39,463 nt of DNA, taken from the IMG/VR virus record IMGVR_UViG_2531839129_000021, one strand, 5' to 3'. Made by a program: the position numbers and the translations under genes. This document shows, piece by piece, positions 29,407 through 32,026 of the stretch (position 1 is the first letter of the stretch; the number at the start of each line of letters is the position of its first letter). The notes beneath the pieces were generated by a model. The model was not told where the DNA came from. It saw nothing but the letters and a program-made list of their open reading frames with translations, and ran no database searches. The stretch is from a virus. Its lineage: Duplodnaviria; Heunggongvirae; Uroviricota; Caudoviricetes.

Positions 29407-29859
29407 ATGGAATTCGAAATCAAAGGCGTGAAATATCGCGTGGCAAAACTCAGCGTTTTTGACCAGCTGAAAGTGACCCGCAAACTTCTGCCGGTACTGG
29501 CGGGAATGATGTCAGATTTCGGGAGCATTCGCTCCCGTTTGCCTGCTGACGGCAAAATCGACACCGTGAAATTCGAGCAGTTAAAACCGGTGTTTGAAAC
29601 CATGCTCCCGCGTATCGCTGAGGAACTGTCTTCCCTGACCGAAGATGACACCGATGCGATTATTCATCCCTGTCTTGCGGTGGTGTCGCGGCGTCATATG
29701 GACGGATGGGTTCCGGTATTTACCCAGGGCGAACTGATGTTTGATGATATTGACTTGCTGGTCATGCTTCATCTGGTGGCGCGGGTGGTCGCCGATTCGC
29801 TGGGAAATTTTTTGCCTACACCCCTTACCAGCACGACGCAGAGCCTGCAACAGGGCTGA
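29407..29859 (+). CDS. Tail assembly chaperone (lambda G / P2 E-like)
   Basis: 150-aa ORF immediately upstream of the tape measure; carries slippery heptamers near its 3' end with an open -1 frame extending to 30047. Confidence 0.55.
   Translation: MEFEIKGVKYRVAKLSVFDQLKVTRKLLPVLAGMMSDFGSIRSRLPADGKIDTVKFEQLKPVFETMLPRIAEELSSLTEDDTDAIIHPCLAVVSRRHMDGWVPVFTQGELMFDDIDLLVMLHLVARVVADSLGNFLPTPLTSTTQSLQQG
29802..29814 (+). other. Candidate -1 programmed ribosomal frameshift site (G GGA AAT / A AAT TTT / T TTT TTG) giving a chaperone extension ending at 30047
   Basis: Three overlapping X_XXY_YYZ heptamers in the chaperone frame; the -1 frame has no stop from 29808 to TGA at 30045-30047 (about 80 codons). 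Confidence 0.5.
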
Positions 29860-30036
29860 CGTTTAACAGCCTGCCGGACGGGCTGTCCTACCTTCTCAAT
29901 CCGGTTGACGCCGGGTTAATTCCCTATACAGCACTTAAAGATGGCTCTGTCGATTTGTATGACATTGCTCTCTTGAATGACCATCTGGCGGTAAAAGCGG
30001 ATAACCAGCGGCGCATTGAGAAATGGAGAGAGGATA

Positions 30037-32026
30037 ATGAACGCTGAAACTATTAAAGATTTCCTCGTCTCGCTTGGCTTCAGTGTGGATGATGCAGGAG
30101 CGAAAAAGTTCGGTTCTGTCCTCGCCGGTACAACTGCAAATGTCATCAAAATGGGACTGGCCGTTGAAGGAGCTGCGCTGTCCGTGGTGGCCTTCACGGC
30201 TAAGATCGCCTCCGGCCTGGATAATCTTTACTGGGCGTCACAGCGCACCGGCGCGACAGTCCAGGGAATTCAGTCTATTGGCTATGCGGTTTCGCAGGTT
30301 GGCGGCAGCGTGGACGCTGCGCGCGGGTCACTGGAGAGCCTTGCCCGTTTTATCCGTAATAACCCCGGGGCGGAGGGATTTCTGAATCGTCTGGGGGTAC
30401 AGACCCGTGACGCCAGCGGTAACATGCGCGACATGGCCGCTATCTTTACGGGCGTCGGCCAGAAGCTCAGCAGCATGCCGTATTACCGGGCTAACCAGTA
30501 TGCGCAGATGCTGGGCATTGACGAAAATACCCTTATGGCGATGCGCCGGGGTGTGGGGGGGGGGCTCCGGGCAGTACAGCGCAATGGCGAAAGCTATCGG
30601 CTTCAATGCTGACGAGGCGGCCAGAAGCTCCAACAAATTCATGACCTCCCTGCGCGAGTTCGGCGCGATGGCAGGCATGGCCCGTGACAAAATCGGCTCT
30701 AATCTTGCGGGTGGGCTTGCGGGTTCGCTGGACCCCCTGCGCCGCCATATCCTGGACAACTTCCCTCGTATCGAGCAGACCCTGACGAAAGCCATAAAAG
30801 GCATTCTGGCGATCGGAGACATCATCGGGCGGCTGTTCTTCAGGCTAATTGAGGGAACATCCAGCCTTATCACCTGGTGGCAATCGCTGGATAAGCAAAC
30901 GCGGGAGCTCATCTCGCTGTTTGGCGCGCTGACGATTGCGCTGCGCATTCTGAACAGTACGTTCTGGATGTCGCCGATTGGTCTCATTACCGCGCTGGCG
31001 GCGGGGATTGCCCTTCTGTGGGAGGACTATCAGACCTGGAAGGAAGGCGGCGACAGCCTGATTGACTGGGGCAAGTGGAAGCCGGAGGTCGATGCCGCGC
31101 TGAAGATGGTTCGTGACCTGAAAGGGTCTGTTAATGAACTGGCGAAAGCGCTGGCGAAACTGCTCAATATTGACCCAAAATCATGGTCCCTGAAGTGGGA
31201 TTTCAGCAACTTCATCGACCAGATGGGCGAATTCAGCAAAATGCTGAACATGATCGCCGACCTGCTCAACGCTATCAAAGATGGCCGCTGGGCTGATGCC
31301 GTCATCATCGGCAAACAGATACTTAATCAGGGCAGCGAAAATCCGTCAGCGATGCCGATGGTTACAGACAGCGCTAACAGTACTGCCGACTGGATTAAAG
31401 AGCACTGGGGATTCGATCCCCGCAGTGTGGGCCGGACGGTACGCGGCTGGTTTGGTGATGATGAGCCGGAACAATATGCACAGGCTACGAAACGAGGAGA
31501 ACGGAATAACAATCCGGGAAACCTTAATTTTGCTGGTCAGGCAGGGGCTTCTCTTGAACGCCCGGGCGGGCGATTTGCCAGATTTGAAACTGCTTTTGAT
31601 GGATTACGGGCTCTTGCTCGTCAGTTAATGCTGTACGCCGGACGGGGAATAAACAGTGTGGAGAAAATTATCTCTACTTGGGCACCTGCGTCTGATAATA
31701 ACAACACAACTGCGTATATCAGGGCTGTATCGCAACGACTGGGAGTGGATCCCCGGGCTGCCCTGAATATGAGCGATCCGCAAACCATGTCAGCATTGAT
31801 GAGCAGCATTATCCAGCATGAGAATGGAAGAAATATCTATTCTCGAGAGCTGATTAATAAGGCTGCCGTGGCGGGAATTAGTGGCAAAATGACAGAGGTT
31901 AACCAGCAAAATACCTACCACATTTACGGTGGTGGAGATCCGCACGCTGTCGGTAATGAGGTTGCACGTCGGCAACAGTCTGCAAATGCTCAGGTCATGC
32001 GAAGTAATCAGGTGAGGGTGGGTTAG
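30037..32026 (+). pseudogene. Tail tape measure protein gene, reading frame broken by one extra G in a 10-G homopolymer (30555-30564); true mutation or sequencing error
   Basis: ATG 30037 with GGAGAGAGGA RBS; upstream frame stops at 30612 while the downstream frame (30407 ORF) runs to 32026; removing one G fuses them into a 662-codon ORF (1989 nt). Confidence 0.6.

What the first reader, a model, noticed from the sequence alone, without database searches (positions are those of the whole stretch)
29802..30047. Conserved-type -1 programmed frameshift in the tail assembly chaperone
The chaperone ORF has three overlapping slippery heptamers (GGGAAAT, AAATTTT, TTTTTTG) in the correct X_XXY_YYZ phase about 15 codons before its stop. 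The -1 frame is open from there for about 80 codons to a TGA at 30045-30047, just past the tape measure start codon. This mirrors the lambda G/GT and P2 E/E+E' arrangement and supports the tail-module gene assignments.
Basis: partly seen in the sequence, partly recalled or inferred. Interest (0 to 1): 0.45.

Follow-up and report, generated by a model that had tools for sequence, protein, structure and literature searches.

The report
Tail chaperone -1 frameshift site
This E. coli prophage has the usual "slip back one base" signal near the end of its tail assembly chaperone gene, which should produce a minor, longer form of the chaperone. The feature is real and conserved, but it is an ordinary example of a long-known phage trick.

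Summary

- **Chaperone gene:** the 150-codon ORF 29407-29859 (Pfam Phage_TAC_15) lies between the tail tube gene and the tape measure gene.
- **Slippery tract:** G_GGA_AAT, A_AAT_TTT and T_TTT_TTG (29802-29814) are all in X_XXY_YYZ phase.
- **-1 frame:** it has no ATG, GTG or TTG start before 29955. It stays open to the TGA at 30045-30047, overlapping the tape measure ATG at 30037.
- **Extension:** it encodes a conserved domain (Pfam DUF6889, E 1e-20). The fusion is 213 aa.
- **Conservation:** 69 related loci, down to about 29% identity, keep the -1 extension. It shows the same codon-position substitution pattern as the N-domain.
- **Shift site:** the AAT-TTT-TT core is frozen at synonymous sites (identity 0.97-1.00 against a background of 0.50). 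A_AAT_TTT and T_TTT_TTG are the conserved heptamers; G_GGA_AAT is dispensable. T_TTT_TTG is the heptamer reported for phage P2 E/E+E'.
- **Stimulator:** no downstream RNA structure is detectable.
- **Prior annotation:** two relatives, Klebsiella phage Mulock and Burkholderia phage Magia, already carry this frameshift in GenBank. RefSeq instead calls a 54-aa "DUF6889 family protein" with a CTG start.

This is a new member of a known kind and of low interest. The tape measure gene in this window is itself broken by a 1-nt indel in a G10 run.

The parts
27807..28952 (+). Tail sheath gene (context)
   Evidence: Pfam DUF3383, E 1.8e-100. Annotated as tail sheath in relatives.
28963..29403 (+). Tail tube gene (context), immediately upstream of the chaperone
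   Evidence: Pfam KPP10_Orf10 (DUF3277), E 8.8e-61.
29407..29859 (+). Tail assembly chaperone, short zero-frame product (TAC-N, 150 aa)
   Evidence: Pfam Phage_TAC_15, E 7.4e-31, 107.8 bits against a cut-off of 22. phrog_1688 'tail assembly chaperone', E 5.6e-65.
29802..29814 (+). Slippery tract GGGAAATTTTTTG: three overlapping in-phase heptamers, G_GGA_AAT, A_AAT_TTT and T_TTT_TTG
   Evidence: Sequence and phase. It holds the only in-phase heptamers inside the zero/-1 overlap.
29805..29811 (+). A_AAT_TTT, a likely working shift site (Phe135 codon in the A site)
   Evidence: A canonical heptamer ending on the Phe codon is present in 55 of 69 relatives. All 69 have an in-phase T_TTY there. Synonymous identity of AAT and TTT is 1.00 against a background of 0.50. 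It belongs to the H_HH.U_UU.Y class, which is efficient in E. coli (PMC4066793).
29808..29814 (+). T_TTT_TTG, the alternative or additional shift site
   Evidence: T_TTT_TTN is canonical in 60 of 69 relatives. It is the same heptamer, in the same phase, as the shift site reported for P2 E/E+E' (PMC3091744).
29811..30047 (+). -1 frame extension (the 'T' domain, 77-78 codons plus TGA at 30045-30047). It is reached only by the shift.
   Evidence: Pfam DUF6889, E 1.2e-20. phrog_4364, E 1.8e-23. Codon-position differences are 0.344/0.287/0.590, matching the N-domain. The first start-like codon is a TTG at codon 48.
29883..30047 (+). Stretch that RefSeq annotates as a stand-alone 54-aa 'DUF6889 family protein' (WP_071819661.1) with a CTG start. 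Here it is read as an annotation artefact of the unrecognised frameshift.
   Evidence: coordinates mapped to the window. The start falls inside the conserved LPDGxxxLxxPV motif.
30037..32026 (+). Tape measure gene. Its ATG overlaps the end of the -1 ORF. In this window it is split into 30037-30612 and 30407-32026 by a 1-nt indel in a G10 run (30546-30555).
   Evidence: phrog_2276 and phrog_12506. Relatives have one 1989-nt CDS. The indel was located.

Best explanation
**What it is.** This is a G/GT-type (P2 E/E+E'-type) programmed -1 ribosomal frameshift in the tail assembly chaperone gene of a contractile-tailed E. coli prophage.

**How it most likely works.**
1. Most ribosomes translate 29407-29859 and release the 150-aa chaperone.
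2. A minority slip back one base on the tract GGGAAATTTTTTG. The most likely positions are P/A-site codons AAU-UUU (A_AAU_UUU) and/or UUU-UUG (U_UUU_UUG).
3. Those ribosomes then read the -1 frame to the TGA at 30045-30047.
4. The result is a 213-aa protein: the whole chaperone N-domain (residues 1-135/136) joined to a 77-aa C-terminal domain, DUF6889.

**Function, by analogy.** In lambda gpG/gpGT the shared N-domain coats the tape measure protein. The frameshift-only C-domain recruits the tube protein, which fixes the ratio of the two forms at the level of translation. Neither form stays in the finished virion.

**Shown here:** the anatomy, the coding status of the -1 ORF, its lack of an independent start, conservation of the shift site, and the absence of an RNA stimulator.

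**Inferred:** that shifting actually occurs, its efficiency, which heptamer is used, and the binding roles of the two domains.
For: 1. **Anatomy.** Phase and open frame are confirmed.
2. **Chaperone identity.** The zero-frame product is Phage_TAC_15 and phrog_1688, and it lies between the tube and tape measure genes.
3. **The -1 peptide is a curated family.** It matches DUF6889 at 73.4 bits against a cut-off of 23.9.
4. **Phage relatives.** tblastn of the fused 213-aa product finds 40 phage records. All match in two pieces and cover at least 90% of the query, at 98% down to 29% identity.
5. **Individual loci.** In 17 relatives examined (15 phage records and 2 E. coli prophages), the -1 frame runs 55-75 codons past the chaperone stop.
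6. **Species-level scan.** This scan used N-terminal and mid-protein motifs only. Of 54 loci, 52 keep a -1 extension of 57-65 codons.
7. **Viral contigs.** Of 80 viral contigs, 77 reach the end of the -1 ORF, and 76 of those keep it.
8. **Coding signature.** Pairwise differences by codon position in the -1 extension are 0.344/0.287/0.590. The N-domain gives 0.390/0.285/0.588.
9. **Synonymous constraint.** Synonymous identity is 1.00 at Asn134 AAT, 1.00 at Phe135 TTT and 0.97 at the next TT. The background is 0.50.
10. **Heptamers in relatives.** At least one canonical in-phase heptamer is present in 65 of 69 loci. An in-phase T_TTY is present in all 69.
11. **No independent start.** 50 of 69 loci have no ATG, GTG or TTG between the slip site and the conserved LPDG motif. 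The window has none before codon 48 of 78.
12. **No transcription signals.** There is no promoter-like or terminator-like site in the 177-nt 'gap'.
13. **Precedents.** P2 shifts on TTTTTTG in the same phase (PMC3091744). The class H_HH.U_UU.Y, which includes A_AAU_UUU, is efficient in E. coli (PMC4066793).
14. **Existing annotation.** The homologues in phages Mulock and Magia are already annotated as 'tape measure chaperone frameshift product'.
15. **A natural fused variant.** A T7 variant (L154, P0001) encodes exactly the predicted fusion in one frame.
Against: - No protein-level evidence exists for this element or for any member of this chaperone family. The relatives' annotations are themselves inferences.
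- No stimulatory structure or conserved downstream fold was found. Efficiency is therefore unknown and may be low.
- Four of 69 relatives lack a canonical heptamer and keep only T_TTY. Three relatives have a truncated extension or a broken chaperone gene (L026, L045, L081).
- The tape measure gene of this particular prophage is frameshifted. The tail module here may be non-functional, whatever the chaperone does.
- There is no detectable sequence homology to lambda G/T or P2 E/E'.
Confidence: 0.88

Rival explanations
1. DUF6889 is made as an independent small protein from its own, non-canonical start codon, as RefSeq annotates it (CTG at 29883, 54 aa). On this reading the slippery tract is irrelevant.
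For: RefSeq and GenBank records annotate stand-alone ORFs of 43-78 aa. Nineteen of 69 relatives do have an ATG, GTG or TTG somewhere between the slip site and the conserved motif.
Against: - The window has no ATG, GTG or TTG in this frame before codon 48 of 78. That start would delete part of the Pfam domain.
- The annotated CTG start lies inside the conserved LPDGxxxLxxPV motif. Amino-acid conservation continues upstream to the slip site (FxRTPY/R).
- The annotated starts differ from record to record, giving lengths of 43 to 78 aa. This is typical of forced start calls.
- Fifty of 69 loci have no start codon in the required interval.
- Independent initiation would not explain the frozen synonymous sites at AAT-TTT-TT.
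Confidence: 0.04
2. The long form arises by transcriptional slippage, not ribosomal slippage. RNA polymerase would add one U on the T6 run, giving a sub-population of mRNAs that encode the fusion in one frame.
For: The tract contains a T6 homopolymer, and some relatives have T7. A T7 DNA variant gives the in-frame fusion. Homopolymer runs of seven are noted as possible slippage sources (PMC4066793). An alternative to ribosomal frameshifting has been proposed for the T4-like chaperones (Vladimirov et al. 2022, cited in PMC12846349; that paper was not readable here).
Against: - Nine of 69 relatives have only a T4 run at the homologous position (for example CCCTTTTAT and AAATTTTAT). The Bordetella phage has only T3. 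All of these still keep the -1 ORF.
- What is conserved is the codon phase (N_NNT_TTY), not the run length.
- From general knowledge, efficient slippage by E. coli RNA polymerase needs runs of about 8-9 or more.
- P2's identical TTTTTTG site is described as a translational frameshift (PMC3091744).
Confidence: 0.05
3. The heptamers and the open -1 frame are a relic or a coincidence in this copy. No long product is made, and the prophage tail module is dead.
For: The tape measure gene in this window is split by a 1-nt indel. The single-sequence statistics alone are weak, with P of about 0.01-0.06 for the open frame.
Against: - The chaperone, the slip tract and the extension are intact here. The nearest relatives, which have intact tape measures, carry an identical chaperone, slip tract and -1 peptide.
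- There is strong purifying selection on the -1 frame across the family.
- The G10 indel could also be a homopolymer sequencing error.
Confidence: 0.03

Closest known systems
Phage P2 E / E+E' tail chaperone frameshift
   Same: - Contractile-tail gene order: sheath, tube, chaperone, tape measure.
- A -1 shift close to the 3' end of the short ORF.
- An identical T_TTT_TTG heptamer in the same phase (PMC3091744).
- No downstream RNA structure (PMC3091744).
- The end of the long ORF overlaps the tape measure start.
   Different: - No detectable sequence similarity (hhalign probability 0.24% or lower).
- The products are larger here: 150 and 213 aa, against 91 and 142 aa.
- The slip site lies 15 codons before the stop here, against 7 in P2.
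- Two further overlapping heptamers precede the TTTTTTG here.
Phage lambda gpG / gpGT (the conserved frameshift of tail assembly genes; Xu, Hendrix and Duda 2004)
   Same: - Position between the major tail (tube) gene and the tape measure gene.
- A short product plus a -1 extended product from one start.
- The extension ORF has no start of its own.
- The end of the T ORF overlaps the tape measure ATG.
- The first heptamer here, G_GGA_AAT, differs from lambda's G_GGA_AAG at one base.
   Different: - Lambda is a siphovirus.
- Lambda's working heptamer is G_GGA_AAG (Lys A-site codon). The conserved core here is AAT-TTT-TT (Phe).
- No sequence homology.
- The lambda T domain is 144 aa. The domain here is 77 aa.
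Klebsiella phage Mulock and Burkholderia phage Magia 'tape measure chaperone frameshift product'
   Same: - True homologues: 57% and 31% identity in the N-domain, and 58% and 29% over the fused product.
- Same two-ORF layout.
- Mulock has the identical GGGAAATTTTTTG tract.
- GenBank already joins the two ORFs in both records.
   Different: - Magia uses C_CCT_TTT instead.
- These annotations are computational and have not been verified experimentally.
- The E. coli prophage copies in RefSeq are not annotated this way.
Pakpunavirus / Vandenendeviridae chaperone frameshift (phage Adele paper, PMC12846349)
   Same: - The related tail type, with a DUF3383-type sheath and a KPP10-type tube.
- The same argument: a -1 ORF with no stop in any genome, a conserved poly-T motif (GTTTTT) near the 3' end of TAC-N, and a downstream ORF wrongly annotated as a separate hypothetical gene.
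   Different: - A different phage family and host.
- Homology of those chaperones to Phage_TAC_15 was not tested here.

Membership tests
G/GT-type tail assembly chaperone with programmed -1 frameshift (lambda G/GT, P2 E/E+E') | The gene lies between the major tail or tube gene and the tape measure gene. | tested here: met
   Tube 28963-29403, chaperone 29407-29859, tape measure from 30037.
G/GT-type tail assembly chaperone with programmed -1 frameshift (lambda G/GT, P2 E/E+E') | A second ORF in the -1 frame overlaps the 3' end of the first. It lacks its own start and extends to the tape measure gene. | tested here: met
   The -1 frame is open 29754-30047. There is no ATG, GTG or TTG before codon 48 of the extension. 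The stop overlaps the tape measure ATG.
G/GT-type tail assembly chaperone with programmed -1 frameshift (lambda G/GT, P2 E/E+E') | An in-phase X_XXY_YYZ slippery heptamer lies inside the overlap. | tested here: met
   Three are present at 29802-29814. They are the only ones in the overlap.
G/GT-type tail assembly chaperone with programmed -1 frameshift (lambda G/GT, P2 E/E+E') | The arrangement and the shift site are conserved in diverged relatives. | tested here: met
   69 loci down to about 29% identity. The -1 ORF is kept in 52 of 54 species-level loci and in 76 of the 77 viral contigs that reach its end. Synonymous sites are frozen at AAT-TTT-TT.
G/GT-type tail assembly chaperone with programmed -1 frameshift (lambda G/GT, P2 E/E+E') | Both the short and the long product are made, in a fixed ratio, and both are needed for tail assembly. 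Neither is present in the virion. | not testable with these tools
   This needs protein detection and genetics.
G/GT-type tail assembly chaperone with programmed -1 frameshift (lambda G/GT, P2 E/E+E') | Sequence or fold relationship to lambda gpG/gpT or P2 gpE/E'. | tested here: not met
   hhalign probabilities are 1.2%, 0.1%, 0.1% and 0.24%. The structure model was too poor to test the fold (mean pLDDT 40.6). Per the review PMC5009743, low sequence similarity among these chaperones is the rule, so this does not bear on the mechanism.
Pfam Phage_TAC_15 (PF21822) plus DUF6889 (PF21829) | Score above the curated gathering cut-off. | tested here: met
   107.8 bits against a cut-off of 22 for the zero-frame product. 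73.4 bits against 23.9 for the -1 peptide.
Transcriptional slippage sites | A long homopolymeric A or T run (about 8-9 or more in E. coli) that is conserved as a run. | tested here: not met
   The run is T6 here. It is only T3-T4 in 10 of 69 relatives that still keep the -1 ORF.
Frameshift sites stimulated by a 3' hairpin or pseudoknot (IS3 or dnaX type) | A stable, conserved RNA structure 5-9 nt downstream of the heptamer. | tested here: not met
   Single-sequence folds give z-scores of -0.45 to -1.29. The consensus fold of 29 relatives is -0.38 kcal/mol, with 2 pairs and no covariation. There is no Rfam match.

The most novel reading that the evidence does not exclude
The frameshift-only C-domain (DUF6889) may behave as a separately exchangeable cassette. 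Its 5' boundary is the nucleotide-conserved slippery tract, and its 3' boundary lies at or near the tape measure start.

In three viral contigs the tube gene and the chaperone N-domain are 96-99.5% identical to the window. Most of the tape measure is 89-95% identical, but the 230-nt extension is only about 59% identical. On this reading the conserved slip site would also act as a recombination joint. That would allow the tube-recruiting domain to be swapped independently of both of its presumed partners.

In addition, the triple overlapping heptamer may shift at more than one position without any stimulator.
Probability: 0.15. Interest if true: 0.3.

Novelty: new member of a known kind. Interest (0 to 1): 0.15.

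Why it matters
The main value is for annotation.

- The evidence indicates that Pfam DUF6889 is the frameshift-encoded C-terminal ("T") domain of Phage_TAC_15 tail assembly chaperones. RefSeq currently calls it a stand-alone "DUF6889 family protein" with a CTG start. Older records call it "NTP pyrophosphohydrolase".
- About 315 of 5426 complete E. coli genomes carry this module, and so do many other Enterobacterales.
- The result confirms the tail-module gene assignments in the window.
- It narrows the working shift site to the AAT-TTT-TT core.

It does not change what is known about frameshifting or about tail assembly.

Tried and rejected
- **Downstream stimulator:** four single-sequence RNA folds gave z-scores of -0.45 to +0.35. 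An RNAalifold consensus over 29 relatives was essentially unstructured. No structure was found.
- **Rfam scan of 29600-30200:** only a chance miRNA hit at E 0.5.
- **Promoter and terminator scan of 29300-30200:** nothing found.
- **AlphaFold2 model of the 213-aa fusion** (P0001 with a 42-row alignment): mean pLDDT 40.6 and pTM 0.24. This is unusable, so no fold search was run.
- **Profile search of PDB sequences:** no hit at E of 1 or lower.
- **NCBIfam:** no family for either part.
- **Locus search with the 17-sequence alignment A1:** It was repeated with the enterobacterial subset A2.
- **hhalign against lambda G, lambda T, P2 E and P2 E':** no similarity.
- **Vladimirov et al. 2022** (the alternative mechanism proposed for T4-like chaperones): not held in the library.
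- **The Mulock genome announcement:** does not mention the frameshift in its text.
- **"DUF6889":** appears in no searchable paper.
- **G_GGA_AAT as the main site:** considered and rejected. It is absent in 24 of 69 relatives, Gly133 shows little synonymous constraint (0.61), and AAU is a poor A-site shifter in E. coli (PMC4066793).
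Full report
**1. Observation**

The ORF 29407-29859 encodes 150 aa. Its codons at 29800-29814 are CTG GGA AAT TTT TTG. G_GGA_AAT (29802-08), A_AAT_TTT (29805-11) and T_TTT_TTG (29808-14) are therefore all in X_XXY_YYZ phase. The last heptamer ends 15 codons (14 sense codons plus the stop) from the end of the ORF.

The -1 frame is closed by a TGA at 29751. It is then open from 29754 to the TGA at 30045-30047. The tape measure ATG is at 30037.

A shift on either of the first two heptamers gives the same 213-aa product (..GNFFAYTPY..). A shift on the third changes one residue (..GNFLAYTPY..). The product is 213 aa rather than about 215.

**2. Is it more than chance?**

The single sequence is only suggestive.
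- Base composition gives P of about 0.01 for 97 open codons.
- In-phase heptamers occur at 3.75 per 1000 codons across ORFs of the window.
- The other heptamers followed by a long -1 frame lie where the -1 frame is simply the next gene, or lie in ORFs that are doubtful genes.

The decisive evidence is that the -1 peptide is a recognised protein family. It matches Pfam DUF6889 at E 1.2e-20 (73.4 bits, cut-off 23.9) and phrog_4364 at E 1.8e-23. The zero-frame product is Pfam Phage_TAC_15 (E 7.4e-31) and phrog_1688, "tail assembly chaperone".

**3. Context**

The neighbouring genes are:

| Coordinates | Gene | Family |
|---|---|---|
| 27807-28952 | sheath | DUF3383 |
| 28963-29403 | tube | KPP10_Orf10 / DUF3277 |
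| 29407-29859 | chaperone | Phage_TAC_15 |
| from 30037 | tape measure | phrog_2276 |
| 32026-32613 | Dit-like baseplate protein | Dit_like |
| 32613-32915 | baseplate plug | Pam3_gp18 |

This is the contractile-tail gene order of P2, FI-FII-E/E+E'-T. No promoter-like or terminator-like site lies in the 177 nt between the chaperone stop and the tape measure start.

The element is an E. coli prophage found in 315 of 5426 complete genomes.

**4. How public records treat it**

RefSeq annotates the chaperone plus a separate 54-aa "DUF6889 family protein" (WP_071819661.1). That protein maps to window 29883-30047, and the codon at 29883 is CTG.

In the large protein collection, stand-alone DUF6889 entries range from 43 to 78 aa. 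They carry the names "DUF6889 family protein" or "NTP pyrophosphohydrolase". The scatter of predicted N-termini is what forced start calls produce.

Two phage records join the two ORFs as "tape measure chaperone frameshift product". They are Klebsiella phage Mulock and Burkholderia phage Magia. The frameshift has therefore already been inferred for homologues.

**5. Comparative test**

- **Phage records.** tblastn of the fused product against 50,697 phage records finds 40. Every match is in two pieces and covers at least 90% of the query, at 98% down to 29% identity.
- **Individual loci.** In the 17 relatives examined (15 phage records and 2 E. coli prophages), the -1 frame runs 55-75 codons past the chaperone stop. 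The +1 frame shows no consistent extension.
- **Species-level scan.** To avoid circularity I scanned one genome per species using peptide patterns from the N-terminus and middle of the chaperone (KLSVFDQL, MFDDIDL). Of 54 analysable loci, 52 keep a -1 extension of 57-65 codons. The exceptions are one locus with a broken chaperone gene (L026) and one with a truncated extension (L045).
- **Viral contigs.** Of 80 IMG/VR contigs, 76 are intact, one is truncated (L081) and three run off the end of the contig.

**6. Coding signature and shift site**

On a codon alignment of 68 distinct fused sequences, mean pairwise differences by codon position are:

| Region | Position 1 | Position 2 | Position 3 |
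|---|---|---|---|
| N-domain | 0.390 | 0.285 | 0.588 |
| -1 extension beyond the zero-frame stop | 0.344 | 0.287 | 0.590 |

The extension is therefore under the same protein-level selection as the N-domain.

Among sequence pairs that share the amino acid, codon identity averages 0.50. It is 1.00 at Asn134 (always AAT), 1.00 at Phe135 (always TTT) and 0.97 at the following TT. At Gly133 (GGA) it is only 0.61.

Across the 69 loci:
- all have an in-phase T_TTY at the Phe codon;
- the heptamer ending on Phe (A_AAT_TTT, C_CCT_TTT or G_GGT_TTT) is canonical in 55;
- T_TTT_TTN is canonical in 60;
- the upstream heptamer at the position of G_GGA_AAT is canonical in 45;
- at least one heptamer is canonical in 65.

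The conserved core is AAT-TTT-TT. G_GGA_AAT is an accessory.

**7. Independent initiation is not tenable**

Fifty of 69 loci have no ATG, GTG or TTG in the -1 frame between the slip site and the conserved LPDG motif. In the window, the first such codon is a TTG at codon 48 of 78, inside the Pfam domain. Amino-acid conservation in the -1 frame starts right at the slip site (F-x-R-T-P-Y/R) and includes LPDGxxxLxxPV. The RefSeq CTG start would cut through that motif.

**8. Mechanism**

Published E. coli measurements (PMC4066793) list H_HH.U_UU.Y among the most efficient heptamer classes. That class includes A_AAU_UUU, C_CCU_UUU and U_UUU_UUU. The same work finds that "homogeneous" A-site codons such as UUU shift better than "heterogeneous" ones such as UUG and AAU. 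This favours A_AAU_UUU.

On the other hand, P2 E/E+E' shifts on TTTTTTG. In the RefSeq record this heptamer is in exactly the same phase (GGT TTT TTG), and the shift is annotated immediately after it (PMC3091744). I cannot decide between these two overlapping sites, and both may contribute.

No downstream structure is predicted for the window (z-scores -0.45 to -1.29 for the downstream segments). None is conserved among 29 relatives (consensus energy -0.38 kcal/mol, no covariation). There is no Rfam match. P2 likewise has no such structure (PMC3091744).

Transcriptional slippage is unlikely to be the conserved mechanism. Ten of 69 relatives have only a T3-T4 run yet keep the -1 ORF.

Function is assigned by analogy with lambda. 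The N-domain binds the tape measure protein, and the frameshift-only domain recruits the tube protein. The ratio of the two forms is set by the shift frequency (review PMC5009743). This step is an inference.

**9. Comparison with known families**

The arrangement and mechanism match the conserved tail-chaperone frameshift. P2 E/E+E' is the closest case, sharing the tail type, the gene order, the heptamer and the lack of a stimulator.

Sequence membership in the lambda G/T or P2 E/E' families was tested and not met (hhalign probability 1.2% or lower). This is usual for these chaperones (PMC5009743).

A fold-level test failed because the AlphaFold2 model was poor (mean pLDDT 40.6). A profile search of PDB sequences found nothing.

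A parallel argument was recently published for the Pakpunavirus chaperone locus, which has a related sheath and tube type (PMC12846349).

**10. Verdict**

The finding is correct and ordinary. It is a new member of a known kind. The same frameshift is already annotated in two homologous phages, but it is not annotated in the RefSeq records examined for this prophage.

The useful by-product is a functional reading of DUF6889 as the "T" domain of Phage_TAC_15 chaperones.

- Confidence that a -1 ribosomal frameshift produces the 213-aa fusion: 0.88.
- Interest: 0.15.

Noticed in passing
window 30546-30555 (inside the tape measure gene, 30037-32026): The tape measure gene is split into two ORFs, 30037-30612 and 30407-32026, by a 1-nt insertion in a G10 run (GTGTGGGGGGGGGGCTCC). 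The 99.6%-identical relative E41 has GTGTGGGGGGGTTCTCC and a single 1989-nt CDS. None of about 54 relatives with this stretch has the G10 form. It is either a real inactivating mutation, which would make this a defective prophage, or a homopolymer sequencing error.
   Followed up: partly
L151-L153 (IMG/VR contigs), compared with window 29407-31400: These contigs are mosaics. Identity to the window is 98.9-99.5% in the tube gene and 96-99.5% in the chaperone N-domain. It is about 59% across the 230-nt -1 extension, then 89-93% again in the first 600 nt of the tape measure gene. The swapped piece begins exactly at the slippery tract. The frameshift-only domain therefore behaves as an exchangeable cassette.
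   Followed up: partly
L154 1897-1912 (Logan contig SRR23924998_45326), equivalent to window 29802-29814: This is a variant with T7 instead of T6 (GGGAAATTTTTTTG). It places the chaperone and DUF6889 in one frame and encodes the predicted 213-aa fusion constitutively (protein P0001). It may be a real long-form-only mutant or a homopolymer error.
   Followed up: partly
window 29883-30047 and database entries P0122-P0148: The -1 extension circulates in databases as a stand-alone protein of 43-78 aa, named 'NTP pyrophosphohydrolase' or 'DUF6889 family protein'. RefSeq gives it a CTG start. The 'NTP pyrophosphohydrolase' name has no support in any domain search run here.
   Followed up: yes
window 29775-29814 and the homologous stretch in Klebsiella, Salmonella, Yersinia, Hafnia and Citrobacter phages: The 40 nt upstream of and including the slip tract (GGTGGCGCGGGTGGTCGCCGAYTCNCTGGGAAATTTTTTG) are almost identical at the nucleotide level, even between chaperones that are only about 57-62% identical as proteins. 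Synonymous identity at several upstream codons (Ala125, Val127, Ala129) is 0.69-0.72 against a background of 0.50. This could reflect an upstream stimulator, a recombination joint or merely strong amino-acid conservation. It was not resolved.
   Followed up: partly
window 30037-30047 and relatives: The -1 ORF stop overlaps the tape measure start in a conserved way (ATGAACGCTGA in 27 of 69 loci, ATGAGCGGTAA in 12). Lambda T and H overlap in the same way. This suggests translational coupling of the tape measure to the upstream reading frames.
   Followed up: no
L157 2150-2190 (P2 gene E), compared with window 29770-29814: The P2 E protein ends its N-domain with ..LVALAGKVVGFL just before its TTTTTTG. 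The window has ..LHLVARVVADSLGNFL before the same heptamer. The local resemblance is not statistically significant (hhalign probability 0.24%). It could still hint at very distant common ancestry of the two chaperone families.
   Followed up: no
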